From assembly GCA_934203105.1 (NCBI GenBank), contig CAKPYQ010000001.1, positions 37,270-101,269 of the forward strand: 64,000 bases of DNA. Reading direction: 5' to 3'. The translations under genes were made by a program, and so were the position numbers. Each line of letters begins with the position of its first letter. Positions within the stretch are counted from its first letter, which is position 1. The DNA comes from an uncultured Alphaproteobacteria bacterium (GTDB taxonomy: Bacteria > Pseudomonadota > Alphaproteobacteria > CAAHEQ01 > UBA3637). Of the stretch, positions 18,896 to 63,599 are shown one piece after another. The notes below the pieces were generated by a model. That model was not told the DNA's origin and searched no databases. It saw only the letters and a program-made list of their open reading frames with translations.

Positions 18896-20899
18896 ATGAA
18901 ACCATTTTTTCAAATCGGTCGAAGTATGATCGAAATGCTGGCGGTATTGGCAATTATCGGCGTGCTGTCAATTGCGGGGATTTTGGGCTATAAATTGGCT
19001 TTAAACAGCTTCATCGCAAACGACATTCTAAACGACGTCCGTTTGGCTGCGGCGACTGTACTGCACCAAGACCAACGAAAAATTGAAAATCAAAAATTGA
19101 TTGATATATCCGAATTTCATCAAACTATTAAATTTGATATGGAAGCATTTCAAGACGATTGGGAAATATTTTCCATTCGTGTTTACGATGTGCCAAAGGG
19201 CGTTTGTCGATCCGTTTTGCGCAAAATCACCGATGAATATAAAATCCGTGTCGGAGAAGAAGGCCCGATTTACATCGATGACATTTCAATATGTGATCAA
19301 GAATTAAATGAAATGTTGTTTTATTTCGGAGATGCGGGCTATATTTGCTCGACCCCTTGCGAAGACGGTGAAATCGGTTGTTGCAACGGCTGCAAATGTG
19401 ACGACGGTGCCGATTGCGTATCCGACGAAGTTTCCGGCGAACAAATGTGTTGCCCGTCCGAACAAATGGCGTGCAACGGACGTTGTTACACCGCTTGCGG
19501 ACAAGGAATGCAGTTTGATCCGACCACTTGCACATGCGTTTGCGGCACCGACAGCAGTGGCCGCCCGCTGTTCCAAGATGCCGACGGCAAATGCACACGT
19601 TGTCCCGACATCGGTGGCGCGATGCAACTGCTTTTGAAGAACGGAACTTGTGAATGCGAAAAACCCGGTTATGTTTATATTGAATCGGCTGGTGAATGCC
19701 AAAAGATCAGCTGTGACCCGCAAGAAGGTGCCGGCGGATACAAATGTACCATTAACGGCATTTTATGTGGCGTCGGCTGTGACGAAAACGCCAAAAGTTG
19801 CAACGGCATTTGTTGGCCAAACGGTTGTCCGGACAAAACTACGTTTAACAGAATGCCCAATGCACACAGGGGTTTCGGGCAAGAATTCCATTGTCAAAAA
19901 AACAAAAATGACAGTTGCTATTACGACTATGATATAGGCGAATGGTCCGTCAACAAATATTTGGGCAAAGAAAGAACCGATTTTCGTTGTTGTCAAGCCG
20001 ACAGCAATTGCAACTGCCAAAGCGGGCTTTGCGATCAAAGCTATTGCGCTGCAAGATGGCCGGGAAAAGCAAACTATGAAGTCATTTATTATAATGAAGG
20101 TCGCGGCGGTTGCTATTTTGCCCAAGAGCACGTTTTCTGCTACCCGACCGAAAGTAATTTAAATGGAAATTGGCATTGCTTTATCACCAGCGGATTAAAA
20201 ACAGGCGAACAAAAAACATGTGATACAACTTGTTCGGCGGCCGATATGCCGTCATGCAATGCAAAATGCGATCCGGATGCGCTTTGCAATGTTTATAACA
20301 TGGGTATGCACGCAGACAGCAATGGTTATTGTTGCACCACGATCAACGGACGAAACATCTGCGCCAAAGGAACGTATTTTTACGTCAAGACATCGGATTT
20401 AAAATACAATCGTTGTGGCGTGGATTGTTCGGCCGACGGCACATGTGAATTGGGCGATTGTTCCGGACAATGCCCAAGCGGCGAATATACCGAACTGAAC
20501 AATGTTTACGGTTGTGCTCATGGCAGAATCGGTTGTTACTATAACGGCAATTATATGGCCGGCAGAGAAGGCTTTTCATATGATTGCACTGTTGATAAAA
20601 CAACGCCTTGCGGTTCCAAATGCGACATCGATGGCAATTTGTGTGAAATCGTAAAAGATTTGGCTTGCGCACCGGACTTTATCGGCGCTTGCACAGACGC
20701 AAACGGCAATACGGTCGATTGCAAAAAGTGCCAAGACACCAAGGGCAACGAAGTTGTTTGCAAACAATGTGTAGCAGATCAACCGGTTACAAAAGAATGT
20801 ATTTGTCCGGCTCATACCGAAACGGCCGAAGGACAGCTTTGCTGTTTAAAAACGCACCAATTGGTCAATGGCGGATGTAATTTGTTAAGCGGATCTTAA
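18896..20899 (+). CDS. giant cysteine-rich secreted protein with type IV prepilin-like (class III signal) N-terminus
   Basis: The N-terminus MKPFFQIG|RSMIEMLAVLAIIGVLSIAGILGY has a short basic leader, then Gly, then a hydrophobic helix with Glu at +5. These are the hallmarks of the prepilin-peptidase substrate. About 500 residues follow with more than 70 Cys in CxC/CC/CxxC arrangements. Confidence 0.6.
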   Translation: MKPFFQIGRSMIEMLAVLAIIGVLSIAGILGYKLALNSFIANDILNDVRLAAATVLHQDQRKIENQKLIDISEFHQTIKFDMEAFQDDWEIFSIRVYDVPKGVCRSVLRKITDEYKIRVGEEGPIYIDDISICDQELNEMLFYFGDAGYICSTPCEDGEIGCCNGCKCDDGADCVSDEVSGEQMCCPSEQMACNGRCYTACGQGMQFDPTTCTCVCGTDSSGRPLFQDADGKCTRCPDIGGAMQLLLKNGTCECEKPGYVYIESAGECQKISCDPQEGAGGYKCTINGILCGVGCDENAKSCNGICWPNGCPDKTTFNRMPNAHRGFGQEFHCQKNKNDSCYYDYDIGEWSVNKYLGKERTDFRCCQADSNCNCQSGLCDQSYCAARWPGKANYEVIYYNEGRGGCYFAQEHVFCYPTESNLNGNWHCFITSGLKTGEQKTCDTTCSAADMPSCNAKCDPDALCNVYNMGMHADSNGYCCTTINGRNICAKGTYFYVKTSDLKYNRCGVDCSADGTCELGDCSGQCPSGEYTELNNVYGCAHGRIGCYYNGNYMAGREGFSYDCTVDKTTPCGSKCDIDGNLCEIVKDLACAPDFIGACTDANGNTVDCKKCQDTKGNEVVCKQCVADQPVTKECICPAHTETAEGQLCCLKTHQLVNGGCNLLSGS

Positions 20900-27754: not shown

Positions 27755-28784
27755 CGGCTACCTCCAAATTTTCATCATCTATGCGAATTTCTTCTATTGA
27801 AAAAGAATAATCATCACAACTATTAATCCATAGTGTCATATCAAGTTCATCTGTAAAGGATAAAGCAGAATTCGTATCAACGGTTATTTCTGCTCGTATC
27901 ATAACCTCATATTCTAAAAATATTTCATCTTCATGGTGTTGTTCTATATTGTATATATTTTTTACAATAAATTTGCTTAAAGACAAATATTTTGTATCTC
28001 CGATAATTTCATTAGAAAATGATCTTAAATCATTAAGAATATTATCTGAATTTAGATATTCTTTTATCTCGGAGTATTCTTCAGGATATTGAGGTGGAAT
28101 AGGATATGTGTCATCTTTATCTTTTGCTATTTGATCTAATTTTGAGTTTAAAATGTCTTCATTTTTTGAATTAATAAAAATAATTTCTTGATTTGGAAAT
28201 AACTTTTTATACTCTTCTTTTAACTCTTCATTGAACATTTTATCATTTGTATATAGGATGATATTTGTATCCGGATGTTCTTTTTTGTATTCTAAAATTG
28301 TTTCCCAAAGTAATGCATCTTTAAAACCCTTATCTGAGTTATTTTCTTTTCCCTCAAAAGGTGGTCTTTTATCAAATGCTCTATTTATAAGATTAAAATA
28401 ACATTTATCAGATGGAAAATTTAATTCTACAATGTTAATAGGCTTATTTTTTAATGCATTTTTATAGGCATTAATGTTTTCATCAAGATAAGTATCATAA
28501 TTTTTTGTTGTATCAACTTTATACGAATGGAAAGGAAATTTATGTTTTTTAAGCATATCTTCAAATTCTTTAACTTTTTTATGGTATGCTATAATATTTT
28601 GTTTTTTAGTTTCAGACCATACAATTTGAGGAATAGCAATTGATACAATATCATAAATATCTAACTCTTCAATGCGTGTCATGAAATTGTCAAGAGTACC
28701 ATTAAAAGAAAAATCTGTAAAATCACAGCATCGAGTATAGTCCTTATATAAAGCATTTGTATCAAAAATAAGTAGATAGTCCAT
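27747..28784 (-). CDS. hypothetical protein embedded in the R-M operon; N-terminal region with PIN-like acidic-residue pattern (tentative)
   Basis: 345 aa. The N-terminus LLIFDTNAL resembles the first PIN strand with its conserved Asp. Later acidic or threonine positions (VWSETKK, ILYTNDKMF with T-x-D) are compatible with a PIN-like fold carrying insertions. There is no database support. Confidence 0.3.
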   Translation of the reverse strand: MDYLLIFDTNALYKDYTRCCDFTDFSFNGTLDNFMTRIEELDIYDIVSIAIPQIVWSETKKQNIIAYHKKVKEFEDMLKKHKFPFHSYKVDTTKNYDTYLDENINAYKNALKNKPINIVELNFPSDKCYFNLINRAFDKRPPFEGKENNSDKGFKDALLWETILEYKKEHPDTNIILYTNDKMFNEELKEEYKKLFPNQEIIFINSKNEDILNSKLDQIAKDKDDTYPIPPQYPEEYSEIKEYLNSDNILNDLRSFSNEIIGDTKYLSLSKFIVKNIYNIEQHHEDEIFLEYEVMIRAEITVDTNSALSFTDELDMTLWINSCDDYSFSIEEIRIDDENLEVADE

Positions 28785-28792
28785 TTTAACCT

Positions 28793-29203
28793 CTATTCAT
28801 AAATTACTCTTTTTGCAATCGATATAAGTTTCTGTAATAAATGCTTTAATTTTTCTCTATATTCATTATGTTCTCTACCAGTATAATACCCGCTTATTGC
28901 AGAATGAGGCAGTGGAATATAGTTTTGATTAAATGGACTTATATAATTCTTTGTCGGATTAAAATAATCACTTATCCAATTATTACGTGGCATACAATAT
29001 CCAAAATTTTCAGATAAATATGAAGTATAATTTTGTAAATACGCTTCATCCATAAGTTTAATTGTTGATGAGGCATATTTTTCAAATGCTTCATATAAAT
29101 CTTTATCTAAATGTTCATTGGCTAATAAATCTATTCCTTTACCTAGGGCTTCAAGCAATTCATTTAGAGCCTTTTGTTTATTAGGATCCAACATAATCAT
29201 CAC
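28793..29203 (-). CDS. hypothetical protein embedded in the R-M operon
   Basis: 136 aa with no recognised motif. It is translationally coupled (ATGA overlap) to the upstream small membrane protein gene. Confidence 0.3.
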   Translation of the reverse strand: MMIMLDPNKQKALNELLEALGKGIDLLANEHLDKDLYEAFEKYASSTIKLMDEAYLQNYTSYLSENFGYCMPRNNWISDYFNPTKNYISPFNQNYIPLPHSAISGYYTGREHNEYREKLKHLLQKLISIAKRVIYE

Positions 29204-29469
29204 TTTCCCTCCGTTGATTTCATTATAATTTCTTCTTCCTTATTATTTTTTTCTTCAGCTTTTTTTATAAGTAATTCATCAAATGTTGTTTTATTTTCCT
29301 TTTGTTCTTCTACAGTTTCAGGATTAAGCTCAGCCCCACCAGGGAGTTTAGTTAAACGAGAAAGAATTTTGCGAATATCATTTTTAAAAATAAAAATACA
29401 TCCACCAACTAAAATAGGCCACGCTAGATGTTCACATAATCCTAATATGAAAGTTTGCCAAGGATACAT
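29200..29469 (-). CDS. small single-TM membrane protein embedded in the R-M operon
   Basis: 89 aa. The hydrophobic helix WPILVGGCIFIF is followed by a charged KE-rich tail. The start is 2 bp after the hsdM stop. Confidence 0.35.
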   Translation of the reverse strand: MYPWQTFILGLCEHLAWPILVGGCIFIFKNDIRKILSRLTKLPGGAELNPETVEEQKENKTTFDELLIKKAEEKNNKEEEIIMKSTEGK

Positions 29470-29471
29470 TT

Positions 29472-30980
29472 TTACATCTCCCAGCCGATGGCTTTCAGTT
29501 TGTTTTTAATCTCTTCTTGCAAAGCATCAGACTGCCTAAACATCTCTGCAAGCTCTCCGGTCAGGCGTTTCATTTTATCTTCAAAAGGTTCACCGTCATC
29601 TTTCTGTTCCTCAATGCCAACATAGCGTCCAGGCGTCAAAATGTAATCCTGTGTCGCAATTTCTGCCGTTGTTGCTACCGCACAAAACCCTTTAACATTT
29701 TCCAACTTTCCTTTTTGAAATGCAGTAAATGTGTCTGCAATCTTTTTAATATCTGCATCCGTAAAATCGCGGTGTTTGCGGTCAACCATGTAGCCCATTT
29801 TCCGCGCATCAATAAAGACTGTTTTACCTTTTTGAGCTTTGTTTTTACTGATAAACCATAACGTTACCGGAATTGTTACACTATAAAACAGTTGTGGTGG
29901 TAGAGCGATAATACCCTCTATCAAATCGGCCTCAATAATATTTTTGCGAATTTCACCTTCACCGCTTGTTTGGGTAGAAAGCGCACCATTTGCAAGGACT
30001 AAACCGATTTTCCCATTAGGTGCTAAGTGATGTATCATATGTTGAATCCACGCATAGTTTGCGTTTCCTGCCGGTGGAATTCCATATTTCCAACGCACAT
30101 CATCTTGTAACTTATCCTGTCCCCAATTAGAAAGGTTAAACGGAGGATTAGCCATAATAAAATCAAACTTTTCATGCGGGTGCAGGTCATTAAAAAATGT
30201 ATCTGCCTGATATGGCCCGAAATCAGCATCAATGCCGCGAATAGCCATATTCATCTTGGCCATTTTCCATGTATCAGCATTGGATTCTTGTCCATAAACC
30301 GATATGTGGTCGCGGTTTCCGCCATGTGCTTGTAAAAATTTAACCGACTGAACAAACATACCACCGGAACCACAACAAGGATCATAAACGCGGCAATTAT
30401 CAAATGGTTTCAAAACCTCGACAATGGTTTTAACAATGCTTTGTGGCGTATAAAACTCACCGCCTTTGGTGCCTTCATATGCCGCAAATTGTGCAATACA
30501 GTATTCATAAGTTCTACCGAGTAAATCTCTATCTCCGTTGGTATCAGACATATCAATATTGTTTGTAAAAAGGTCAACAACATTGCCTAAAACACGTTTA
30601 TCAAGATCTTGATTGGCATAATTTTTAGGTAATACATTTTTAAGCGATTTATTTTCTGCTTCAATCGCTCGCATAGCATCATCAATAATAATGCCGATTT
30701 CCGGAGTGTGTGCCGCTTCAGCAATTTTACTCCAACGTGCGGCCTCAGGAACATAGAAAATACCTTCTTCAATATATGCATCTTTGTCGTTTTCAAAACC
30801 ATCACCTTCGGCGACAAGCTGATTATAGCGCTTTTCAAAGGCCGCAGAAATATAACGCAAAAAGATAAGTCCAATAATTACTTTTCGGTAATCTGCCGCA
30901 GGAATATGTCCCCAAAGTTCACAAGCTGCACCCCAGATTTGCTTTTCAAAACCTAAATTTGCATTATTTTTACCAGCCAT
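29472..30980 (-). CDS. hsdM: type I restriction-modification methyltransferase subunit (HsdM), N6-adenine
   Basis: The N-terminal HsdM domain (WGAACELWGHIPAADY) is present. The SAM motif is DPCCGSGGMF. The catalytic NPPF lies in IMANPPFNLSNW. Confidence 0.88.
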   Translation of the reverse strand: MAGKNNANLGFEKQIWGAACELWGHIPAADYRKVIIGLIFLRYISAAFEKRYNQLVAEGDGFENDKDAYIEEGIFYVPEAARWSKIAEAAHTPEIGIIIDDAMRAIEAENKSLKNVLPKNYANQDLDKRVLGNVVDLFTNNIDMSDTNGDRDLLGRTYEYCIAQFAAYEGTKGGEFYTPQSIVKTIVEVLKPFDNCRVYDPCCGSGGMFVQSVKFLQAHGGNRDHISVYGQESNADTWKMAKMNMAIRGIDADFGPYQADTFFNDLHPHEKFDFIMANPPFNLSNWGQDKLQDDVRWKYGIPPAGNANYAWIQHMIHHLAPNGKIGLVLANGALSTQTSGEGEIRKNIIEADLIEGIIALPPQLFYSVTIPVTLWFISKNKAQKGKTVFIDARKMGYMVDRKHRDFTDADIKKIADTFTAFQKGKLENVKGFCAVATTAEIATQDYILTPGRYVGIEEQKDDGEPFEDKMKRLTGELAEMFRQSDALQEEIKNKLKAIGWEM

Positions 30981-31233
30981 TTTATCTCTCTTCGCATTGA
31001 AACTATTAATAGATTGATATTCAAAAGTACTTTTTGTAGTATATTAATTTTCAATAAAAAAGTCAAAGAAAATGTAAAGACTTACGCTAAAATCTTTATA
31101 CTTTTGAGATAAATATCGTTAAACCACTGAGAGTCGACAAAATAAAAAATACAATTATTAATGAAGTTATGTTTAAAATGCAAATTTAGGATGCCTTTAA
31201 AATCAAAACTCATCCAATTTAACGTCTTGCCTT

Positions 31234-31701
31234 TTAGTCATTGTAACAATCCGTATTTTTCAGCACTTCTTTGGAATAAGAATTCTTATAAAGATTCATA
31301 TACATATCTGCAAAATCAAGGGTATAGTTTAATTGAAAAATTATAATAAATAATGCAACATGCAACGATGATATATATAGGAAATTATTATAGCTATAAT
31401 TAAAAGACAACACATTTAAAAAGAATAAAATAAGTAAAGAAAATAGAGACATCTTTAAGAATTTTTTATTATCACTAATAAAAATCTTAAACATATTACG
31501 CTTTTTCATATAGAGATTAATGTTTTGATTAGCATAGGCAGCCAAAAGAAATGACAGTGAAAAGGCAAAAATAATAGAAACACATGTAATTGCATCAGAA
31601 AGCAGGTTATCTTTTAAAGGAAATCCCAAACTTATTATTAACAAGAATAGCAATATCCATGTTCTTATTCTACATTTTAGCAAAAATTTCTTCGATTTCA
31701 T
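31234..31701 (-). CDS. small polytopic membrane protein (about 4 TM), unknown function, overlapping the upstream gene
   Basis: The start is placed at MKSKKF, preceded by the strong RBS aaaaggaagaaggatatt. There are four hydrophobic helices. The gene is very AT-rich and overlaps the upstream 251-aa gene by 32 bp in a different frame. Confidence 0.4.
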   Translation of the reverse strand: MKSKKFLLKCRIRTWILLFLLIISLGFPLKDNLLSDAITCVSIIFAFSLSFLLAAYANQNINLYMKKRNMFKIFISDNKKFLKMSLFSLLILFFLNVLSFNYSYNNFLYISSLHVALFIIIFQLNYTLDFADMYMNLYKNSYSKEVLKNTDCYND

Positions 31702-32425
31702 AATATCCTTCTTCCTTTTCAAATTCAAAAATTTCCTTTGCCACAACGCTTTGTTCATTAATAGAAATAAAACCATCAGAGCTTTCCCCTTTTATATTGA
31801 AACTTTTTATGTATGAAGGAGACATTAATTTCTCGTATAATTTTTTTATATACTTAACATTAAGCGCTCTTTTAAAATCCATTTTTACAACGGTTGTCTC
31901 GGGTTTTTCTTTTTCTTCTAAATCATCACCCCAATGAGGATTCAAAAATTCATTTATAAATAAGTTGTTTGTTGCGGTAATAGAAATTGTTTCTATTGAT
32001 TTCACCTGTTTGATAAAATCATCAATAGAAGTAGAAACGGCCAACAAATCACAAGAAAAATTCTTGTCCGTTTCATGCAATAAATTCAAAATTATATTTC
32101 TTTTATTATGATCTGAACTCAATACCTTATTTTGATAAATCACAAATATAAACTGATGCGTCATATGAACAATTTCATCTGACAAGACGCTGTCGTCATA
32201 AATCCTTTGATTCCTATTATAGCATCTATTGGGTTTTGATTTTCCATATGACACTAAAAAAACGATTTTATCTTGATCCATCATATGACGTATCGTATAT
32301 GTGGTTTCACGCAATGGGTAATCTATGATTTCTTTGTTTTGCAGTTTTTCTTTTAAAATTCGTGTTCCTGCTCCTAAAAGGTCAACACATTCCGGAATAT
32401 AACTAAACATACGCACAGAGCTCAT
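31670..32425 (-). CDS. hypothetical cytosolic protein (251 aa), AT-rich, unknown function
   Basis: No recognisable catalytic motif by eye. A glutamate-rich C-terminus (EFEFEKEEGYYEIEEIF) overlaps the downstream membrane-protein gene. Confidence 0.4.
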   Translation of the reverse strand: MSSVRMFSYIPECVDLLGAGTRILKEKLQNKEIIDYPLRETTYTIRHMMDQDKIVFLVSYGKSKPNRCYNRNQRIYDDSVLSDEIVHMTHQFIFVIYQNKVLSSDHNKRNIILNLLHETDKNFSCDLLAVSTSIDDFIKQVKSIETISITATNNLFINEFLNPHWGDDLEEKEKPETTVVKMDFKRALNVKYIKKLYEKLMSPSYIKSFNIKGESSDGFISINEQSVVAKEIFEFEKEEGYYEIEEIFAKM

Positions 32426-32587
32426 CGTTCTAATCCTTTCAATATTTTTGGTTTCTTATCTATCTCCACTAATGTTTGATATTTTAACAATTTATTCTAT
32501 CGTATCAACATTTGATAAAAAGGTCAAGTAAATATCGAAATTTGATAAAATTTTTATGTTTTTTTGAAAACACATCAATATCAATTG

Positions 32588-33487
32588 TTACAAACAAATA
32601 TTGATTAAAAGATTTTTCTTTTCCTGATAACTTTTTACTAAACTCAAAACAAAATCGTTAATGACTTCCGCCAAGGGTAATTTCCCTTTGTCAGTATAAA
32701 TAACCTGCGCAGTAAGACCGGCAAGCACTCTTTTTATTTCTGGTGTTAATTGCCCCATAAATGACCCCATTTTTAAAATATCCAAAACAGCCTGATCTGC
32801 AAAGGGGCGAAATGGTTCAATCAAATCATCAACAAGTGGCATTGTATTTGCCGATTGGCAATGCTTTAATCCCAAATAAGGTAATAACCCGTTAGCACAG
32901 ACGCTGCGCGCAACCATTGCCCGTAAAATTGTATAAGCATAATTTAAAAGCATATTTATATCTGCCGCATTGCGATTGCGAATAAAATCAGAACCAAATA
33001 ATTCATTAAAATAAAGATGCGCCGCCTGCCCTTCATTATTTTGCAGGTCATCGTTTTTAACCGTTTTTGACAACATTTGTAAACGCACTTTTATCGTCGA
33101 GTTCGGATGAACAAAAGCTAATAACTTAGCTTGATTGCTGATCTTCATTTGCACAATTTTCTTCCACAAATTTTTACGCAAGGACTCCGGCAAGGCCGTT
33201 TGCGCTTTAATTCTGGCCGACGTTAACCAATGCCCGACAATCGGTAAAGTTATTGCGGCAGGCATATATTTATCATTGCAAAAAATAAGGCATGCTTGAT
33301 TTTCACATAAAGCATTAACGATATTTTTTGAAATCAAAACATTATGTGCGGAAATAATTAAACATAAAATGCTATCCAACGGGATCTGATTAACTTGATT
33401 GGTCCGTACATCTGTAACAATTAAAAAACCTTTCGATAAAGAAAGTTTGAAATGATCAGACGATATTTCTATTACCCGTTTTAACAT
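32588..33487 (-). CDS. cas1: CRISPR-associated endonuclease Cas1, type II-family-like, apparently solo (no cas9/cas2/array in the window)
   Basis: 299 aa. Long collinear similarity to type II Cas1 as I recall it from Neisseria: NEGQAAHLYFNELFG..F.RNRN...INMLLNYAYTILRAMVAR......LLPYLGLKH......PLVDDLIEPFRPFADQ. The putative metal-binding E, H and D positions are present. GC content is lower than in the adjacent core genes. Confidence 0.8.
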   Translation of the reverse strand: MLKRVIEISSDHFKLSLSKGFLIVTDVRTNQVNQIPLDSILCLIISAHNVLISKNIVNALCENQACLIFCNDKYMPAAITLPIVGHWLTSARIKAQTALPESLRKNLWKKIVQMKISNQAKLLAFVHPNSTIKVRLQMLSKTVKNDDLQNNEGQAAHLYFNELFGSDFIRNRNAADINMLLNYAYTILRAMVARSVCANGLLPYLGLKHCQSANTMPLVDDLIEPFRPFADQAVLDILKMGSFMGQLTPEIKRVLAGLTAQVIYTDKGKLPLAEVINDFVLSLVKSYQEKKNLLINICL

Positions 33488-44216: not shown

Positions 44217-44416
44217 AAGTTTCACAAAGAATATTTAAAATCAGCATCGTCTTAATTTTTTGAAGATGTTTATTGTTGTGAATATTTTGCCCCCCTTGTG
44301 CTGTTATTCTGAACGAAGCAAAGAAGCTGTTTAAATCACTGTCATGGCCAAATGTGCGCTGCGCCAAAATTCGCGCGCCCGCGCCGCACATTTCACCATG
44401 AGTGAATGAGGTATCC

Positions 44417-44459
44417 CAATCGTCCCCGCGGATTGATCCGCGCGGCGCGGGGACGATTG
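44417..44459. repeat. palindromic element Q1 (14-bp perfect inverted repeat caatcgtccccgcg / cgcggggacgattg, 15-nt loop)
   Basis: Read directly from the sequence. Confidence 0.8.
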
Positions 44460-44519
44460 ATTCTTGGTGTCATTCTGAGCGAAGCGAAGAATCTCTTAAT
44501 ATGTGGCCTTGGGCGCAAA

Positions 44520-44558
44520 GTGGGGGACGCGAAATTTTCGCGCCGCGCGTCCCCCCAC
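44520..44558. repeat. palindromic element Q2 (gtgggggacgcg ... cgcgtccccccac with nested cgcgaaattttcgcg palindrome)
   Basis: Read directly from the sequence. Confidence 0.8.
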
Positions 44559-44626
44559 TTGATAAGCTGTTTTTTTCCACTCGTCATTCTGAACGAAGTG
44601 AAGAATCTTTTGAAGTATGGCACCCT

Positions 44627-44671
44627 AAAATGTGCGGCGCGCAAATCTCCGCGCGTCCGCGCCGCACATTT
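44627..44671. repeat. palindromic element P2 (aaaatgtgcggcgc ... gcgccgcacatttt, 14-bp perfect arms)
   Basis: Read directly from the sequence. P1 at 44350-44393 is a diverged copy. Confidence 0.8.
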
Positions 44672-44932
44672 TGCTATATTCGATGACGCACATCAACTCA
44701 ATAAAAAATCCTCCACAACTCATTCAAAAAAACTTCTTTCCTATATGAACAAAAACGATCGTTTAAAGTCAATAGATTTTTTTGCGGCGCGACCCTCTAT
44801 AACTTATTGAAAATAAACAAAAGCCAATTTTTATATTTTGCTTGAAATACGACGAACACAAACGATCGTTTATGTAATATATGAAAGAAGCGGTTTTTTG
44901 ATTTAGTTTAACAGAGAAAAAAGGAGATAAAA

Positions 44933-47140
44933 ATGAATAAAAATCAGCTATTAAACATCAAAAAAATGATTTTTGAGTTGGGGCGTGGGGGCAGCAAAAA
45001 TCATTTTTTTGATCGGGTGAATAACGTGCGGGAAGTTGAGAGATTCTTCGCTATCGCTCAGAATGACGATTGCGAAAACGCCAGCAAGAGGGGACGCGCC
45101 GTGCGAAAATTTTCGCGTCCCCTCTTGGATTGTTTTATTCGCCGTTATTCGGGAAAAAGCGCCCAAACACAAACCGGCCGGTCAATGCTTGAAATGCTGG
45201 GTGTGCTGGCGATCATCGGCGTGCTGTCGGTCGGCGCAATCATGGGCTTTCGGTACGCCATCAACCGCCACAAAGCAAACGAAACGATTTACGACGTTAT
45301 GCTGCGCGCGACCAACGTCCCGATGGCTTGGGACAATTACGCCGAGCTGCACGACTTTAAATATCTGTTCCCCGAGCTTCGTCCAAACGATGTCAATCCG
45401 GTCGGCTTTGCGGTTGAAACTTGGGCCGAACCTGCGACCAGCAAATACGCTTACCGAGTCGAAGTCGCGGACGTTCCAAGCGCTGTGTGCCGGCAAATTA
45501 TTGCTTTAAATCCGCCGGATATCTCGCTGTACAAAGCAGGCTCCGCAATCGATCGAACGGGCATTCATGCGACACAAAACGATTGCGGATCGGACAAAAC
45601 GAACATGTACTTTTTGTTCGAAGAAGGTTGGTTTGATCCTACGCCTGGTCCTGATCCAACGCCGGGTCCGGGACCGGAGCCGGGACCAGAGCCTGGACCT
45701 GAACCGGAATGCGCGACGAACAATGATTGTGCAGCGGGCCAAGTTTGCAAAAACGGCATTTGCGAAGAGTGTACTTTGAACTGTACAGGCGCTTGCGAGC
45801 GATTGAATGCAACGACTTGTTCGTGCGAGGTTTTAGCGGGATGCACGCCGTGCGCTGATGCCTCTGATTGCCCCTCCGGCAACTATTGCGATGAAGGCGA
45901 ATGTCAGACTTGTGATAAAACTTGCGCCGGCGCGTGTGAAGAATTGGATACCGCGACGTGTTCGTGCGTTGCTAAATCAGATTGCACGCCTTGTTCCGAT
46001 AGCTCCGAATGTGGCGACGGGCAATACTGCAACGGAGACAAGTGCGATAACTGCGATCTGACTTGCGACGGGGCTTGTGAAGAATTGAACACCGCGACAT
46101 GTTCGTGCGTTGCCAAGTCAAACTGTACGCCGTGTTCCGATAGCTCCGAGTGTGATGACGGACAATACTGTAACGGCGGCAAGTGCGACGGTTGCGATCT
46201 GACTTGTTCGGGCGCTTGCGAAGAATTGAATACCGCGACGTGTTCATGTGTCGCCAAATCCAACTGTACGCCGTGCTCCGATAGCTCCGAATGTGGTGAA
46301 GGACAATACTGTAACGGAGGCAAATGCGATACTTGCGATCTGACTTGTTCGGGCGCTTGTGAAGAATTGGACGCTGCGACGTGTTCGTGCGTTGCTAAGT
46401 CAAACTGCACGCCGTGCACCAGCAACGCAGATTGCGAAACGGGCAGCTATTGCGACGGCGTCGTTTGCACGCCGTGCCCCAGCGCTCAAAGCGGGTATGT
46501 GTGTTGTTCGGTCAAGCCGATCGACGGCGACAATCCGTTCGATCATGTATGGGTCGGCGATCCTTTGGGCGAGGGTTACTGCTGCACCAGCAAAGACGAA
46601 AGCGAGGAGTGTTGCACAGCCTATAACGCGGACTACGTTTACAAAGACGGTAAGTGTCAAGAATTTAAGTGTGACGACGGTTATCAAGCGGTAACGAATT
46701 ATGCTTCCGACGGCACAAAATCCGGCAAAGCCTGTTGCGAGGTGAAGGAGGATGAAACCTCTACAAACTCATACGGATGGACAAGACAATCAACAGGATG
46801 GACAATAGCAGGAGCCATTAACGGTAGTTGTTGTTCAGGATGGAGTTTTATAGGAGAAACTGAAGGAACTGTTGATTCATATCACACTGCTACTACATAT
46901 AACAATTCTTATGATTTAAAAACAAATGGTGGAGTAATGTATTGCGCTAAGCCGTTTAATTATGAAAAGAAAGTCTGGTATCCTGGACAAACAGATCCCG
47001 TGCAAGGCCCTAAGCGCGAAGATTATTATCCGAGCGCTTCGAAATATTGCTGTAAGACCAATTCTAGTTACGATAGTAGTACTACAACTTGTACATGTTC
47101 CGATTCCGGTGATCCGAAAAATGGATCGAGATGTGATTAA
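44933..47140 (+). CDS. giant cysteine-rich secreted protein, paralog of the 18896 gene, with prepilin-like segment (QTG|RSMLEMLGVLAIIGVLS) and 4 tandem 47-aa Cys modules; true start ambiguous
   Basis: A strong RBS (aaaaaggagataaaaATG) precedes 44933, but that start gives an 84-aa leader that runs through a palindromic repeat. Alternatives are TTG at 45125 or degeneration of the 5' end. Downstream there is a Pro-rich linker (PTPGPDPTPGPGPEPGPEPGPEPE). The repeat unit is CTPCSDSSECGDGQYCNGGKCD.CDLTC.GACEELNTATCSCVAKSN, and the C-terminal region is Cys-rich. Confidence 0.55.
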   Translation: MNKNQLLNIKKMIFELGRGGSKNHFFDRVNNVREVERFFAIAQNDDCENASKRGRAVRKFSRPLLDCFIRRYSGKSAQTQTGRSMLEMLGVLAIIGVLSVGAIMGFRYAINRHKANETIYDVMLRATNVPMAWDNYAELHDFKYLFPELRPNDVNPVGFAVETWAEPATSKYAYRVEVADVPSAVCRQIIALNPPDISLYKAGSAIDRTGIHATQNDCGSDKTNMYFLFEEGWFDPTPGPDPTPGPGPEPGPEPGPEPECATNNDCAAGQVCKNGICEECTLNCTGACERLNATTCSCEVLAGCTPCADASDCPSGNYCDEGECQTCDKTCAGACEELDTATCSCVAKSDCTPCSDSSECGDGQYCNGDKCDNCDLTCDGACEELNTATCSCVAKSNCTPCSDSSECDDGQYCNGGKCDGCDLTCSGACEELNTATCSCVAKSNCTPCSDSSECGEGQYCNGGKCDTCDLTCSGACEELDAATCSCVAKSNCTPCTSNADCETGSYCDGVVCTPCPSAQSGYVCCSVKPIDGDNPFDHVWVGDPLGEGYCCTSKDESEECCTAYNADYVYKDGKCQEFKCDDGYQAVTNYASDGTKSGKACCEVKEDETSTNSYGWTRQSTGWTIAGAINGSCCSGWSFIGETEGTVDSYHTATTYNNSYDLKTNGGVMYCAKPFNYEKKVWYPGQTDPVQGPKREDYYPSASKYCCKTNSSYDSSTTTCTCSDSGDPKNGSRCD
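45087..45126. repeat. palindromic element Q3 (aagaggggacgcg ... cgcgtcccctctt, 13-bp perfect arms, same loop core gcgaaaattttcgc as Q2), located inside the 5' extension of the second pilin-like ORF
   Basis: Read directly from the sequence. It is in frame with the 44933 ORF and translates as KRGRAVRKFSRPL. Confidence 0.8.
45843..46440. repeat. about 4.3 tandem copies of a 141-bp coding repeat (47-aa Cys module), very high nucleotide identity between copies
   Basis: Protein-level repeats read from the translation. The nucleotide copies, for example ...acgtgttcgtgcgttgctaagtcaaactg..., recur at a 141-bp spacing. Confidence 0.75.
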
Positions 47141-49798: not shown

Positions 49799-50173
49799 CT
49801 AATTTTTCTTCATCGTATCGGGGTAATCACCAGTTGATCCACCGCGATTTCCTACGTCAACAGCACCTGAAGTTGAATCAACAGTTACGTAGTCGATGAT
49901 CAAACCGGCGATCGCAACAATACCCAAACCAACGCACAATGCCGCGAACCATTTCCAGTTCAATTTACCGAAAATTGCAAAGAATGCCAAAACAATCAAA
50001 CCAAAACCGCCAACGATGAAAATCATCTTACGGGAATATTGGAACGCTTCGGAAACTTTAGTAAATGCGATACCCCAAGCAGTTTCAGATGAGCTAGTAG
50101 CAAAAGCATCGCCCGCCCACAACATAACGCCGGCCACCAAGGCCATTGCCATAATAGAGAATAATTTGTTCAT
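49799..50173 (-). CDS. putative TrbC/VirB2-family T4SS pilin-like protein (orphan)
   Basis: 124 aa. A long signal peptide ends in AFA. Two hydrophobic helices (MIFIVGGFGLIVLAFFAIFG and WFAALCVGLGIVAIAGLII) are separated by a short basic loop, which is the VirB2/TrbC topology. The segment GLGIVAIAG resembles VirB2 LGIVAIGI. No other T4SS genes are in the window. Confidence 0.4.
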   Translation of the reverse strand: MNKLFSIMAMALVAGVMLWAGDAFATSSSETAWGIAFTKVSEAFQYSRKMIFIVGGFGLIVLAFFAIFGKLNWKWFAALCVGLGIVAIAGLIIDYVTVDSTSGAVDVGNRGGSTGDYPDTMKKN

Positions 50174-61307: not shown

Positions 61308-63599
61308 TTAGCGTTCTGCGCCGGTATTTTCGATCGAAATCGAACGATTGACATCTGCCCGCGGCATACGCGCCAACTTTAAAGCTTCACGGTTGGCAGA
61401 TACTTCGGCTTGTTGGCTTCTGACCCCGGCCGCCGCAGTTGAGAAATGACCTATTTCATTTTTCAAAGCCGCCGGCGTCGTTACGGAAATCGAAAAATCA
61501 TGCGCTTGCGACAGATTCATTTTCGGACGTTCAGACAAAGGCTTTGTATCAATCGCAATCATTTGATCACGTCCGCTTTGCGTGGTACGCAACATTGTCG
61601 GATCAACTTGCAAGTCCTCCGCTTTTATCGGTTGTTCCGGCGTCGGTTGTTCCGGTGTCGGCTGCTGTGGCGTTGGTTGTTCCGGTGTTGGTTGCTGTGG
61701 CGTTGGTTGTTCCGGCGTCGGTTGCTGTGGCGTCGGTTGTTCCGGTGTCGGCTGCTGTGGCGTCGGCTGTTCCGGTGTCGGCTGCTCCGGCGTCGGTTGT
61801 TCCGGCGTTGGTTGCTCCGGTGTCGGCTGCTGCGGCGTCGGTTGTTCCGGTGTCGGTTGTTCCGGTGTCGGTTGCTCCGGTGTCGGCTGTTCCGGTGTCG
61901 GTTGTTCCGGCGTCGGCTGTTCCGGTGTCGGTTGCTGTGGCGTTGGTTGCTCCGGCATCGGCTGCTCTCGTCTTTGCTTTTGCCGACCCAATCGTTCGTA
62001 TTCCCCGCCTTTCATCATCGATTTAGACGTATCCGCTAACTTTTTCAACGTTGCATTTGTCGGCGGATGGCCGTACGTTTGGAAATATCCGTAATCTAAC
62101 ATACGATTACGCAATTCTTCCATTTGACCTTTGCTTAAATCGCCAATCATACGCCCGTCTTTATCAAACTTTAATTTCAAACCGTCCAATAACTCGGGAT
62201 GTTCTTTGCGCAATTTTGCGGCCGCTTCCGGCATATTTCCGCAGCTTTCAATAAAAAGCTGGTGCACCGATTCAAATCGATCGTGCGCGCTCATTCCGCG
62301 AGCATCAGCCACGGTTTGATCATATTGTTCTACTTTGTCTTGAATATACTTTGTTTTTTCCTTAACCTTTTCGGCGGCCAAATCCAAGCCCCATGCGACT
62401 TGGTTAGGCAAGTAAAGCAACGCGCGGATAAACAAATTTTGGAAAGCTTGTTCCGGCGATTTTGCTTTTGAAAACTCTTCGACTATTCCCCAAAACGAAT
62501 TTGCATGATTACGTTCGGCAATTTTTTCCCGTGCTTCTTCACTTAATTTAAAACCTTCGGAAAAGTCCATGCCTTCACGGACGGGAGGTTGATTTTCGGG
62601 TTTTGACGCCGGCCCCGGCACATACGGTTCGGCCGGCGTATCGTTATTGTTGCCGTCCGGAGCATAATAGTATGGTCCGTTATTGGGCACATTGCCTTGA
62701 ATAGTAATCGGGGCAGCCTCCGCCATTTTTTGCGGATCATACGTAAAGTTATCATTTTCCAAACTGCCATCCACTGTAACGCCCGGTGTTGTCGGTGTTT
62801 CGCCCGTCGTTGCCATTGATGGTGTTTGTGGAATAGCTCCGTTTATCGTCGCGCCATTTTCCATTAAGCGATCAGCTTTCGGCTTATCAGCAATACTGAC
62901 TTTGTCGGGATCGTAAGTGTATGGACTTTGCTCGTTACCGGTAACAGAGATATTGTCCTTGCTGTTTGAAAACAACGGCGCGCGATACGTCGCATCTTGC
63001 GCATTGTTTTGTTCAAACGGATTGCCCCCCAACAATTGCACGGCTTTTTGATGAGCAACCGGTTCCAATTCGCTCCAAATCGTATTCAAATTATCCATAC
63101 GATTTTTATCGTAATCAATAACAGCTTGGCGTTCATCAAAAGCTTTTTGCGCTTCTTTTAAATACATCGAATCTGTACTGATGTTTCCCGTATTCAACGC
63201 TTTAATTTCATCGGTATTCATCAAAAAATCAGCCTGTTCTTTGGTCAGGTTTTCAATATTATCAACACCATAGTGTGAAGCCGCCAAACTTTTAAACACT
63301 TCCTTTGCTTTGGAGGAAGAAAGCGTTTCCAACTTTGAAAAAGCGTCCGGATCTCGGATCGGCCGAATTTGTGCGTTCAAATCCAATAAAGCTTGCTGCA
63401 CATTCGGCGATAATTCACGCTCCGGATTGATTGTCAACGAACTCATAAATCCGATCGGCGCTTTGATAAAATCGGCATAATTTTCCGCCGAGCTTTTCGA
63501 TAAAAACTCTTTTGCTTCCGATGTACCGATTTCCTCATCGACGTGCGCCGTACTGATGTTTTTGTAATCGTCCAGCTGTTGATTGTATCCGTCTGCCAT
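61308..63599 (-). CDS. large hypothetical protein with about 22 tandem PTPEQ pentapeptide repeats near the C-terminus
   Basis: 763 aa with no signal peptide. The C-terminal stretch ...QPTPEQPTPEQPTPQQ... runs for about 110 residues and is encoded by 15-bp tandem repeats. Confidence 0.5.
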   Translation of the reverse strand: MADGYNQQLDDYKNISTAHVDEEIGTSEAKEFLSKSSAENYADFIKAPIGFMSSLTINPERELSPNVQQALLDLNAQIRPIRDPDAFSKLETLSSSKAKEVFKSLAASHYGVDNIENLTKEQADFLMNTDEIKALNTGNISTDSMYLKEAQKAFDERQAVIDYDKNRMDNLNTIWSELEPVAHQKAVQLLGGNPFEQNNAQDATYRAPLFSNSKDNISVTGNEQSPYTYDPDKVSIADKPKADRLMENGATINGAIPQTPSMATTGETPTTPGVTVDGSLENDNFTYDPQKMAEAAPITIQGNVPNNGPYYYAPDGNNNDTPAEPYVPGPASKPENQPPVREGMDFSEGFKLSEEAREKIAERNHANSFWGIVEEFSKAKSPEQAFQNLFIRALLYLPNQVAWGLDLAAEKVKEKTKYIQDKVEQYDQTVADARGMSAHDRFESVHQLFIESCGNMPEAAAKLRKEHPELLDGLKLKFDKDGRMIGDLSKGQMEELRNRMLDYGYFQTYGHPPTNATLKKLADTSKSMMKGGEYERLGRQKQRREQPMPEQPTPQQPTPEQPTPEQPTPEQPTPEQPTPEQPTPEQPTPQQPTPEQPTPEQPTPEQPTPEQPTPQQPTPEQPTPQQPTPEQPTPQQPTPEQPTPQQPTPEQPTPEQPIKAEDLQVDPTMLRTTQSGRDQMIAIDTKPLSERPKMNLSQAHDFSISVTTPAALKNEIGHFSTAAAGVRSQQAEVSANREALKLARMPRADVNRSISIENTGAER
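61630..61965. repeat. about 22 x 15-bp tandem repeat (YGGYTGYTSYGGYGT on the plus strand) encoding PTPEQ/PTPQQ
   Basis: Read directly from the sequence. The unit is nearly perfect with wobble variation. Confidence 0.85.

What the first reader, a model, noticed from the sequence alone, without database searches (positions are those of the whole stretch)
45843..46440. Four near-identical 141-bp tandem coding repeats (47-aa Cys module) in the second pilin-like gene
The repeats CTPCSDSSEC(G/D)(D/E)GQYCNGGKCD.CDLTC.GACEEL(N/D)(T/A)ATCSCVAKSN are almost identical at the nucleotide level, implying recent expansion. This allows homologous-recombination-driven copy-number variation in an antigenic, surface-exposed domain. 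Each module has 10 Cys, so it likely forms five disulfides. It is reminiscent of small disulfide-rich extracellular modules in eukaryotes.
Basis: seen in the sequence. Interest (0 to 1): 0.55.

Follow-up and report, generated by a model that had tools for sequence, protein, structure and literature searches.

The report
Cysteine-rich stalk repeats in a pilin
The 141-bp repeats are real but old and conserved rather than newly expanded; they most likely build a disulfide-rich stalk in an unusually large pilus subunit, one member of a big, strain-variable surface-protein family in uncultured gut Alphaproteobacteria.

Summary
The 141-bp (47-aa, 10-Cys) in-frame repeat exists. There are five full units (45701-46405) plus a half unit (46406-46477). 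The units are not "almost identical". The three closest share 82-86% nucleotide identity, with dS 0.7-1.7 and dN/dS 0.04-0.10, and the longest shared exact run is 27 nt. All three complete alleles found carry the same 5.5 units, so recent expansion and recombination-driven copy-number change are not supported for this gene.

The gene encodes a modular type IVb pilin:
- a class III signal peptide (G|RSMLEML, Glu+5);
- a PilS/bundlin-like pilin module (hhalign 98.8% to short pilins that sit beside PilO, ATPase and platform genes in a related MAG; Foldseek top hits CofA/TcpA);
- a Pro-rich linker;
- the Cys stalk;
- a variable C-terminal head.

Each unit is predicted as two beta-hairpins (pLDDT 88.5) with no significant PDB neighbour. 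Its first half matches TIGR04201, the stalk repeat of myxobacterial TraA.

The family has at least 577 copies in gut alphaproteobacterial MAGs. The strain variation I could see is replacement of the 3' head cassette and rearrangement at a palindromic 5' cassette. A sister clade does vary a different 53-aa module from 1 to 8 copies.

The parts
44300..45130 (+). Palindromic REP/MITE-like 5' cassette. It holds a 25-nt box (forward at 44303, 44469, 44583; reverse at about 45043-45067), GC hairpins, an AT-rich core flanked by ~32-bp inverted repeats (44734-44765 / 44862-44892), and a perfect 19-bp palindrome (44957-44975 / 44995-45013).
   Evidence: The box occurs only here in the 64-kb window (0 expected by chance). 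The same cassette lies upstream of other family genes (L001, L082, L094). It also occurs without a fused gene (L095) and in the opposite orientation (L094 8961-9606).
44933..45175 (+). Probable long (81-aa) prepilin leader. The ATG at 44933 is preceded by AGGAG with a 6-nt spacer and is in frame through the reverse box and hairpin into the pilin. An alternative start is the TTG at 45125 (18-aa leader). The ATG at 45185 is rejected because the invariant G-R-S lies upstream of it.
   Evidence: Read from the sequence. The homologous 'MNK(N/H)QLLNIKKMIFELGRGG...' start heads open frames of 70-146 codons in P0001, P0002 and L094 6128-7303. The true start is inferred, not shown.
45176..45637 (+). 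Type IVb pilin module: cleavage motif G|RSMLEML (Glu at +5), alpha-1 helix (residues 3-51), beta-sheet, and two invariant Cys (C105, C137).
   Evidence: invariant columns in 15- and 92-sequence alignments; pLDDT 82-97; top nine Foldseek hits are CofA/TcpA type IVb pilins; best E 1.2e-3, prob 1.0, TM 0.49; hhalign 98.8%, E 7e-17 to the L063 PilS-type pilin.
45634..45707 (+). Pro/Gly/Glu-rich flexible linker (PTPGPDPTPGPGPEPGPEPGPEPE), and a recombination boundary.
   Evidence: 18- and 12-bp tandem arrays; pLDDT <50 for residues 155-174; 94.7% nt identity to L001 stops at 45645.
45701..45841 (+). Unit 1 of the 141-bp array: divergent, 9 Cys, lacks the first Cys.
   Evidence: Positionally orthologous to L082 unit 1 (88.7% nt). 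Best TIGR04201 stretch falls here.
45842..45982 (+). Unit 2: 10 Cys, 67-72% nt identity to units 3-5.
   Evidence: Orthologous to L082 unit 2 (80.9% nt).
45983..46405 (+). Units 3, 4 and 5 (starts 45983, 46124, 46265), the three closest copies. Each is A (C-x5-C-x5-C-x4-C hairpin) plus B (C-x3-C-x3-C-x7-C-x-C hairpin).
   Evidence: 82-86% nt, dS 0.71-1.70, dN/dS 0.04-0.10; AF2 pLDDT 88.5, two beta-hairpins per unit.
46406..46477 (+). Terminal half unit (A sub-module only).
   Evidence: 92.9% nt identity to L082 across the 141-nt window starting at 46406.
46478..46753 (+). Conserved Cys-rich sub-domain (YVCCSVKPIDGDNPFDHVWVGDPLGEGYCCTSKDESEECC...).
   Evidence: Shared with L082, P0014, P0142 and P0143. 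pLDDT 79-93 for residues 451-500.
46754..47140 (+). Low-GC 3' cassette encoding the distal 'GAINGxCC' head. GC is 39.6% and GC3 25.8%, against about 53% GC in the rest of the gene.
   Evidence: composition; homology to L082 ends at 46753; strains L090/L091 have 97.5% identical flank but an unrelated 3' coding end, 34% aa identity; 35% identity to the end of P0036.
18896..20899 (+). Paralogue: same leader type (MKPFFQIG|RSMIEMLAVLAIIGVLS) and pilin module, but a different Cys-rich C-terminal region with no tandem array.

Best explanation
The repeats encode a rod-like, disulfide-bonded stalk inside a modular type IVb pilin of an uncultured gut alphaproteobacterium.

Shown by tools:
- The protein has a class III signal peptide and a PilS/bundlin-like pilin module.
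- A flexible Pro-rich linker follows.
- Then come five and a half 47-residue units, each predicted as two beta-hairpins, then a conserved Cys sub-domain and a variable C-terminal head.
- The units are old and under strong purifying selection, and their number is the same in every complete allele found.

Inferred:
- A prepilin peptidase removes the leader at G|R.
- The pilin module inserts the protein as a minor, probably tip-located, subunit into a type IVb pilus built from the short PilS-like pilins of the same clade.
- The stalk holds the variable head away from the filament so that it can bind a host or microbial ligand.
- Diversity comes from a large repertoire of paralogues and from exchange of 5' and 3' cassettes at the linker and at the gene end, not from gain and loss of the 141-bp units.
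For: Repeat anatomy and age:
-.

Pilin identity:
- G1, R2, E6, M7, L8, C105 and C137 are invariant in 92 homologues.
- The AF2 N-domain has pLDDT 82-97 with helix 3-51 plus a sheet.
- The top nine Foldseek PDB hits are all type IVb pilins, CofA/TcpA.
- hhalign gives 98.8% probability to L063 pilins.
- Those L063 pilins hit Pfam PilS and Bundlin and lie directly after PAP_PilO, T2SSE and T2SSF genes.

Stalk:
- The module-only AF2 model has pLDDT 88.5 and consists entirely of beta-hairpins.
- The A half reaches the curated TIGR04201 cutoff, 29.4 against 25 bits. TIGR04201 was defined on the Cys-rich region that follows the PA14 domain of myxobacterial TraA (PMC3325183).

Family size:
- At least 577 confirmed stretches were found, nearly all in gut Alphaproteobacteria MAGs, with several per genome.
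- Of 78 complete ORFs in the fetched loci, 64 are long with about 8% Cys, and 14 are short with mostly two Cys.

Cassette exchange:
- L001 shares the upstream region and the N-domain (94.7% nt over the N-domain) but nothing after the linker.
- L090/L091 share flanks at 97.5% but have a different head.
- The 3' cassette has GC3 of 26% against 53-61% for the N-domain and modules.

Precedent:
- Modular pilins are described as widespread in PMC8179133.
Against: - No pilus machinery or prepilin peptidase lies in the 64-kb window. Linkage to machinery was seen in only one related MAG (L063).
- Curated pilin HMMs do not reach threshold on this protein. TIGR02532 scores 13.4 against 16.3 bits on the paralogue. 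PF07963 scores 9.4 against 21.2 bits.
- Arg at +1 and a possible 81-residue leader are unusual for pilins.
- Foldseek similarity to pilins is moderate (TM 0.35-0.49).
- The adhesin role of the head and the spacer role of the repeats are inferred from architecture only.
- Disulfide pairing was not examined.
- Only three complete alleles are known. Six of six same-species contigs from the frr side end inside the gene, so hidden copy-number variants are possible.
Confidence: 0.65

Rival explanations
1. One reading: the array is a contingency locus. Recombination between units changes the copy number, and so the stalk length or antigenicity, between strains.
For: - In a sister clade of the family, otherwise near-identical proteins carry 1, 2, 3, 6 or 8 copies of a different 53-aa Cys module.
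- Those units are 74-92% identical, with exact in-register runs up to 53 nt.
- Units 3-5 of this gene have no clear one-to-one orthology with units 3-5 of L082. All pairs are 81-86% identical, within and between genomes. This could reflect past unequal exchange or gene conversion.
- Short-read contigs often break inside the gene.
Against: - Unit identity is only 82-86%, with at most 27-nt exact runs.
- dS is 0.7-1.7.
- The same 5.5 units occur in the window, L088 and L082. Partial alleles L092 and L093 are collinear.
- Units 1, 2 and 6 are positionally orthologous across the 84%-identical alleles.
- The copy-number differences in the sister clade come from short-read assemblies, which can collapse repeats.
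Confidence: 0.15
2. The protein is not a pilus subunit. The pilin-like N-terminus serves only as an uncleaved signal-anchor or as a pseudopilin-type export tag. The Cys-rich part then sits in the periplasm or on the cell surface, or is released as a secreted binding protein.
For: - No machinery is in the window.
- Curated pilin HMMs are below threshold.
- The genes are scattered among housekeeping genes in every context examined.
- A mature size of about 650 aa is large for a pilin.
Against: - G-1 and E+5 are invariant in all 92 aligned homologues. This is what is expected if prepilin peptidase cleavage and filament assembly constrain them.
- The alpha-1 segment is nearly identical to that of short PilS-type pilins encoded next to an assembly ATPase and platform.
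- Large modular minor pilins such as PilB and CofB are established (PMC8179133).
Confidence: 0.17
3. The repeat is an assembly artefact, or the ORF is not a real gene.
For: Metagenome assemblies frequently break in this gene.
Against: - The units differ at 14-33% of positions, so they are not collapsed or duplicated reads.
- The same array is present in independent assemblies from other samples (L088, L092, L093, L082).
- dN/dS of 0.04-0.10 shows selection on the protein.
- The modules fold with confidence.
Confidence: 0.02

Closest known systems
Modular type IV pilins (S. sanguinis PilB/PilC, ETEC CofB; Raynaud et al. 2021, PMC8179133)
   Same: An N-terminal pilin module with a class III signal peptide is joined by a linker to extra C-terminal modules that are presented by the filament. 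Multi-repeat examples exist: the paper cites an 860-aa pilin with 12 copies of one motif.
   Different: - The grafted part here is a disulfide-rich stalk plus head with no Pfam signature.
- The +1 residue is Arg.
- The leader may be about 80 aa long.
- The genes form a family of hundreds of dispersed paralogues rather than one or two genes in a pil operon.
- No experimental evidence exists.
Type IVb pili of the R64/IncI PilS-PilV kind (PilO, PilQ ATPase, PilR platform, PilS major pilin, PilV variable minor-pilin adhesin; PMC9045228)
   Same: - A related MAG (L063) has the gene order PilO-like, ATPase, platform, then PilS/bundlin-type pilins.
- Those pilins have the same N-terminus as this protein.
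- As with PilV, a constant N-terminal pilin part is combined with alternative C-terminal parts.
   Different: - No shufflon, no Rci-type recombinase and no PF04917 match were found in the window.
- The alternatives are separate full-length genes and allelic cassettes, not invertible segments within one gene.
- The variable parts are Cys-rich.
TIGR04201 Cys-rich repeats of myxobacterial TraA (PMC3325183, PMC6372800)
   Same: - The A half of each unit (C-x5-C-x5-C-x4-C with a D/G pattern) scores above the curated cutoff.
- In TraA the tandem Cys repeats are combined with a highly polymorphic PA14 recognition domain. Here they are combined with a strain-variable C-terminal head.
   Different: - The polarity is inverted: the anchor is N-terminal through a pilin module, not a C-terminal MYXO-CTERM.
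- There is no PA14 domain.
- The B half is lineage-specific.
- The A-B composite was found in only 9 of 1.84 billion representatives at E<=1e-3, and only one of those is a close relative.
- The organism is an alphaproteobacterium, not a myxobacterium.
Eukaryotic small disulfide-rich modules (Dickkopf/Draxin CRD, knottins, TNFR and ErbB Cys-rich domains)
   Same: Short beta-hairpin units are stapled by several disulfides and strung into rods. One local match covers 24 residues of Draxin at 42% identity and 0.5 A rmsd.

Membership tests
Type IV pilin (class III signal peptide proteins) | Leader ending in Gly, then about 20 hydrophobic residues with Glu at +5 | tested here: met
   G|RSMLEMLGVLAIIGVLSVGAIMG. 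G1, E6, M7 and L8 are invariant in 92 homologues. Many homologues have short basic leaders such as MKKQTG|.
Type IV pilin (class III signal peptide proteins) | Match to the curated N-methylation/cleavage models (TIGR02532, PF07963) | tested here: not met
   TIGR02532 scores 13.4 bits (cutoff 16.3), on the paralogue only. PF07963 scores 9.4 bits (cutoff 21.2). One homologue, P0038, carries a precomputed PF07963 hit.
Type IV pilin (class III signal peptide proteins) | Pilin fold: long N-terminal alpha-helix packed on an antiparallel beta-sheet, with a disulfide in the C-terminal part | tested here: met
   AF2 gives helix 3-51 plus strands at pLDDT 82-97. The top nine Foldseek PDB hits are CofA/TcpA (E 1.2e-3 to 0.14, TM 0.35-0.49). 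C105 and C137 are invariant.
Type IVb PilS/bundlin-type pilins | Homology to pilins encoded with type IV filament machinery | tested here: met
   hhalign of the N-domain profile against L063 6627-7172 gives 98.8% probability and E 7e-17 over 107 columns. That protein hits PF08805 PilS (61 bits) and PF05307 Bundlin, and follows PAP_PilO, T2SSE and T2SSF genes. The window protein itself gives no PilS Pfam hit.
Type IV pilin (class III signal peptide proteins) | Prepilin peptidase and assembly machinery in the same genome; cleavage and incorporation into a filament | not testable with these tools
   None in the 64-kb window. Only flanks of related genomes could be fetched.
Modular pilins (sensu PMC8179133) | Pilin module followed by additional structural module(s) joined by a linker | tested here: met
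   Pilin module at residues 1-154, disordered linker at 155-174, then confidently folded Cys modules.
TIGR04201 Myxo_Cys_RPT | Score at or above the curated cutoff | tested here: met
   29.4 bits against 25, with 2 stretches. Only the A half of the unit is covered.
TIGR04201 Myxo_Cys_RPT | TraA-type architecture (PA14 head, MYXO-CTERM anchor, Myxococcales) | tested here: not met
   No PA14 or MYXO-CTERM hit in Pfam or NCBIfam. All close relatives are from gut Alphaproteobacteria MAGs.
Eukaryotic Cys-rich modules (Dickkopf_N, EGF, TNFR CRD, knottin) | Significant sequence or structural match | tested here: not met
Tandem-repeat contingency locus (copy-number phase or antigenic variation) | Near-identical repeat units that can act as recombination substrates | tested here: not met
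   82-86% nt identity for the best three units, at most 27-nt exact runs, dS 0.7-1.7.
Tandem-repeat contingency locus (copy-number phase or antigenic variation) | Different copy numbers among strains | tested here: inconclusive
   Three complete alleles all have 5.5 units and two partial alleles are collinear. The sample is small and many contigs end inside the gene.
Shufflon / PilV system | Rci-type recombinase and invertible C-terminal segments flanked by sfx repeats | tested here: not met
   No integrase or recombinase Pfam hit among the ORFs of 150 aa or more that were scanned in the window. No inverted-repeat-flanked 3' segments were seen. Only the window was examined.

The most novel reading that the evidence does not exclude
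Uncultured gut Alphaproteobacteria run a pilus-based antigenic or adhesive variation system of a kind not yet described. It would have these parts:
- dozens of dispersed full-length modular type IVb minor-pilin genes per genome;
- each gene displaying a hypervariable 'GAINGxCC' head on a disulfide-rich stalk;
- diversification by exchange of 5' (pilin-module) and 3' (head) cassettes between paralogues and strains;
- possible switching by a palindromic mobile or invertible 5' cassette. This cassette carries the ribosome-binding site and start codon and is fused in frame to a cleavable prepilin leader, so the extra residues would be discarded on processing.
Probability: 0.2. Interest if true: 0.75.

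Novelty: new variant of a known kind. Interest (0 to 1): 0.5.

Why it matters
If the reading is right, a poorly known group of gut Alphaproteobacteria from humans, ruminants and rabbits invests heavily in a repertoire of pilus-displayed, disulfide-rich, strain-variable surface proteins. These are natural candidates for adhesins that bind host or microbial ligands, and for targets of immune selection.

The result also extends the modular-pilin idea. It adds a large multigene family whose grafted parts are invisible to Pfam. It also links a bacterial Cys-repeat type, previously defined on myxobacterial TraA and related myxobacterial proteins, to pili.

For the narrow claim I was given, the lesson is cautionary. 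Tandem coding repeats with a conserved protein sequence need not be recent or unstable. Here synonymous divergence shows that they are old.

Tried and rejected
- Pfam and NCBIfam on the whole protein and on its parts gave no domain except TIGR04201 and sub-threshold Dickkopf_N and N_methyl hits.
- A PDB sequence search with the module array found nothing at E<=10.
- A JGI metagenome scan with the protein found no relative.
- An exact look-up of the 735-aa ORF found no record.
- The names of NCBI-sourced homologues were all empty.
- A second protein search with modules plus C-terminus found only proteins sharing the conserved C-terminal sub-domain, and no further A-B arrays.
- tblastn with E. 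coli GspD/E/F/G/O against the window and about 830 kb of loci gave a single hit, the L063 ATPase. With the L063 machinery proteins as queries, nothing further matched.
- I considered an inverton (invertible promoter) in the 5' cassette. A cassette in the opposite orientation exists (L094), but it is at another locus and the whole palindromic element is flipped. Insertion in either orientation explains this equally well. The promoter scan was no better than chance and Rfam gave nothing. I leave this as a lead, not a claim.
- I considered P0002 as a recent recombinant of the two window genes. Its C-terminal part is only 26% identical to the 18896 paralogue, so it is the same type but not a recent exchange.
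- The ATG at 45185 is rejected as the start because the invariant G-R-S lies upstream of it.
- Literature searches for this family in gut Alphaproteobacteria found nothing relevant.
Full report
**Observation.** Tandem Repeats Finder reports a 141-bp period array at 45929-46417 (3.5 copies, 84% matches). Ungapped repeat finding puts units in register at 45701, 45842, 45983, 46124, 46265 and 46406. All units are in frame with the ORF 44933-47140.

The units are not near-identical:
- Units 3-5 share 81.6-85.8% of nucleotides but 87-92% of residues.
- Unit 2 is 67-72% identical in DNA to units 3-5.
- An unnoticed unit 1 (45701-45841) is 52-55% identical in DNA.
- A half unit follows at 46406-46477.

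Synonymous codon differences (11-17 per pair) outnumber non-synonymous ones (4-6). By the Nei-Gojobori method, dS is 0.71-1.70 and dN/dS 0.04-0.10. The longest in-register exact run between any two units is 27 nt.

**Age and copy number.** The closest orthologue is P0001, on contig L082. It is about 84% identical in DNA and has the same five and a half units. Units 1, 2 and the half unit are positionally orthologous (88.7, 80.9 and 92.9% nt). Units 3-5 are 81-86% identical to one another both within and between the two genes. dS between the closest units is at least as large as dS between the two genes in the N-domain (0.45). The triplication is therefore about as old as, or older than, the split of the two lineages.

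Using the flanking frr gene, I found six same-species contigs:
- L088 (99.9% identical) has the full 5.5 units.
- L092 (100%) and L093 (96%) are partial but collinear, with no 141-bp indel.

No copy-number variant was seen. However, only three complete alleles exist, and all six contigs end inside the gene.

**What the gene is.** Upstream of the array lies the sequence ...TQTG|RSMLEMLGVLAIIGVLSVG. The paralogue at 18896 begins MKPFFQIG|RSMIEMLAVLAIIGVLS.

In 189 database homologues (120 listed), this N-terminus is extremely conserved. Many homologues start with a short basic leader such as MKKQTG|. In a 92-sequence alignment, G1, R2, E6, M7, L8, C105 and C137 are invariant. This is the class III signal peptide pattern: Gly at -1, Glu at +5.

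Curated HMMs do not reach threshold. A profile search of PDB sequences gives only sub-threshold hits, most of them pilin N-termini.

AlphaFold2 with the 92-sequence alignment predicts residues 1-150 at pLDDT 82-97, as a 49-residue helix packed on a sheet. The top nine Foldseek PDB hits are all type IVb pilins, CofA and TcpA (best E 1.2e-3, probability 1.0, TM 0.49).

Decisive support comes from locus L063, in a related gut alphaproteobacterial MAG. It has the following genes in order:
- a PAP_PilO gene;
- a T2SSE ATPase (also 32% identical to E. coli GspE);
- a T2SSF platform protein;
- two 181-182-aa pilins that hit Pfam PilS and Bundlin.

These two pilins begin ...G|RSMVEMLGVLAIIGVL. The N-domain profile of our family aligns to one of them with 98.8% probability (E 7e-17, 107 columns), including the conserved Cys. 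The N-domain is therefore a PilS/bundlin-type type IVb pilin module.

**The rest of the protein.** The parts after the pilin module are:
- A Pro/Gly/Glu linker (45634-45707), which is disordered in the model.
- The array, which reads A-B x5 + A. A is C-x5-C-x5-C-x4-C and B is C-x3-C-x3-C-x7-C-x-C.
- A conserved Cys sub-domain (46478-46753), shared with L082, P0014, P0142 and P0143.
- A terminal head of about 130 aa with a GAINGxCC motif.

By sequence, the A half passes the curated cutoff of TIGR04201 (29.4 against 25 bits). TIGR04201 is the Cys-rich repeat defined on myxobacterial TraA, where it follows the PA14 domain (PMC3325183). That domain is highly polymorphic between strains (PMC6372800).

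The A motif recurs 2-9 times in many paralogues. The A-B composite is almost unique. A profile search of 1.84 billion representatives found 9 hits at E<=1e-3, and only P0001 is close.

*The head.* The head cassette (46754-47140) has GC 39.6% and GC3 26%, against about 53% GC in the rest of the gene. Homology to L082 ends exactly there. Two same-species strains, L090 and L091, have 97.5% identical downstream flanks. In them the 3' coding end has no nucleotide similarity and only 34% protein identity, and the boundary falls at the stop codon.

**Family and variation.** Nearly all of the 80 best are in uncultured gut Alphaproteobacteria MAGs from humans (including Hadza), rabbits and ruminants, with up to eight family genes from one MAG among those 80 loci. 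Of 78 complete ORFs in these loci, 64 are long with about 8% Cys, and 14 are short with mostly two Cys.

The genes are scattered among housekeeping genes. Mosaicism is clear:
- L001 (P0002, from a Hadza sample) shares the upstream region and the N-domain with the window (94.7% nt over 45140-45645). It shares nothing after the linker, and it lies in a different genomic context.
- On the response-regulator side, same-species contigs either end in the upstream cassette or continue into different genes. L094 continues into another family gene, a FadL-like gene and a second family gene. L095 continues into rpsA and cmk.

A sister clade, with an N-domain about 64% identical, carries a different 53-aa Cys module in 1, 2, 3, 6 or 8 copies in otherwise near-identical proteins. 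Those units are 74-92% identical, with exact runs up to 53 nt. Copy-number change therefore does occur in the family, subject to short-read assembly caveats. It is not evident for this array.

**Mechanism proposed.**

*Shown:* the architecture, the homology of the N-domain to machinery-linked pilins, purifying selection on the units, the constant copy number in the known alleles, and allelic head replacement.

*Inferred:*
- cleavage at G|R by a prepilin peptidase;
- incorporation as a minor or tip subunit of a type IVb pilus;
- the repeats acting as a rigid disulfide-bonded spacer that presents the variable head;
- the head acting as a ligand-binding or immune-exposed part.

The nearest precedents are modular pilins (PMC8179133), R64/TP114 PilV adhesins with constant N-terminal and alternative C-terminal parts (PMC9045228), and TraA. 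I give this reading a confidence of 0.65.

*Rivals:*
- a non-pilus role for the pilin-like N-terminus (0.17);
- an artefact (0.02).

**5' cassette (outside the finding).** The region 44300-45130 is a palindromic REP/MITE-like element: 25-nt boxes, GC hairpins, and an AT-rich core between ~32-bp inverted repeats. The box is found only here in the window. It is not a known Rfam family.

An AGGAG-ATG at 44933 lies in the gene-proximal arm. It opens a frame that runs through a perfect 19-bp palindrome, a reverse box and a hairpin into the prepilin leader. The homologous start heads open frames of 70-146 codons in P0001, P0002 and L094. This suggests an unusually long leader, partly encoded by the element.

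The element also occurs without a fused gene (L095), and flipped upstream of another family gene (L094 8961-9606). Whether it is a mobile promoter cassette, an inversion switch or only a recombination hotspot is open.

**Novelty and score.** Modular pilins, type IVb pili and TIGR04201 repeats are all known. The following appear undescribed in the literature I could search:
- the combination of the three;
- the lineage-specific A-B unit;
- the size and strain variability of the family in gut Alphaproteobacteria.

I rate it a new variant of a known kind, with interest 0.5. The narrow claim of a recently expanded, recombination-prone repeat is not supported.

Noticed in passing
window 44300-45130: A palindromic REP/MITE-like cassette lies upstream of the gene. 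It has 25-nt boxes (GTCATTCTGAGCGAAGCGAAGAATC), GC hairpins, an AT-rich core between ~32-bp inverted repeats, and a perfect 19-bp palindrome. The box occurs nowhere else in the window. Same-species contigs and synteny break here (L094-L100). A flipped copy precedes another family gene (L094 8961-9606), and a copy with no fused gene occurs in L095.
   Followed up: partly
window 44922-45175: A strong Shine-Dalgarno sequence (AGGAG) and the ATG at 44933 are in frame with the pilin. This implies an 81-aa leader partly encoded by repeat elements. The homologous start heads open frames of 70-146 codons in P0001, P0002 and L094 6128-7303.
   Followed up: partly
window 46754-47140; L090 4648-5178, L091 3478-4077: The 3' 'head' cassette is low in GC (39.6%, GC3 26%). 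In two same-species strains with 97.5% identical flanks it is replaced by an unrelated sequence (34% aa identity). The boundary falls at the stop codon.
   Followed up: yes
L063 101-7175 (CALXWF010000128.1): A type IVb pilus operon sits in a related gut alphaproteobacterial MAG. It has PAP_PilO, a 491-aa coiled-coil protein, a T2SSE ATPase, a T2SSF platform and a 210-aa ORF with a sub-threshold PilS hit. Two PilS/bundlin-type pilins with the same G|RSMVEMLGVLAIIGVL N-terminus follow.
   Followed up: yes
P0003-P0012; L086 261-3137, L084 8001-9992: A sister clade of the family carries a different 53-aa Cys module (…CSACQDYN…) in 1, 2, 3, 6 or 8 copies in otherwise near-identical proteins. Units are 74-92% identical in DNA, with exact runs up to 53 nt.
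   Followed up: yes
window 20993-22063 (+): A 356-aa Cys-rich predicted lipoprotein (signal ...LIAAC) with an internal duplication (…YCQKRANSLAWNG… / …YCPQNANSLAWNA…) lies immediately downstream of the first pilin-like gene. It has no Pfam or NCBIfam hit.
   Followed up: no
window 61628-61967 within ORF 61308-63599 (-): A 30-bp tandem repeat (11.3 copies) encodes (PEQPT/PQQPT)n in a 763-aa protein with no family hit.
   Followed up: no
window 22645-33487: A low-GC island (about 30-37% GC against about 43% elsewhere) holds a type I restriction-modification system: hsdR 22645-25698, hsdS 26543-27754, a PIN-domain gene 27747-28784 and hsdM 29472-30980. A Cas1-like gene sits at 32588-33487, and no repeat array was reported near it.
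   Followed up: no
window 49799-50173 (-); L088 3935-5117: A small TrbC/VirB2-like membrane protein gene lies between pyrH and the uracil-DNA glycosylase gene. It is single in the window but present twice in some same-species contigs (L088, L090).
   Followed up: no
window 13312-13364 within ORF 12246-13487 (-): A 12-bp tandem repeat (4.4 copies) lies inside a 413-aa ORF with no Pfam hit.
   Followed up: no
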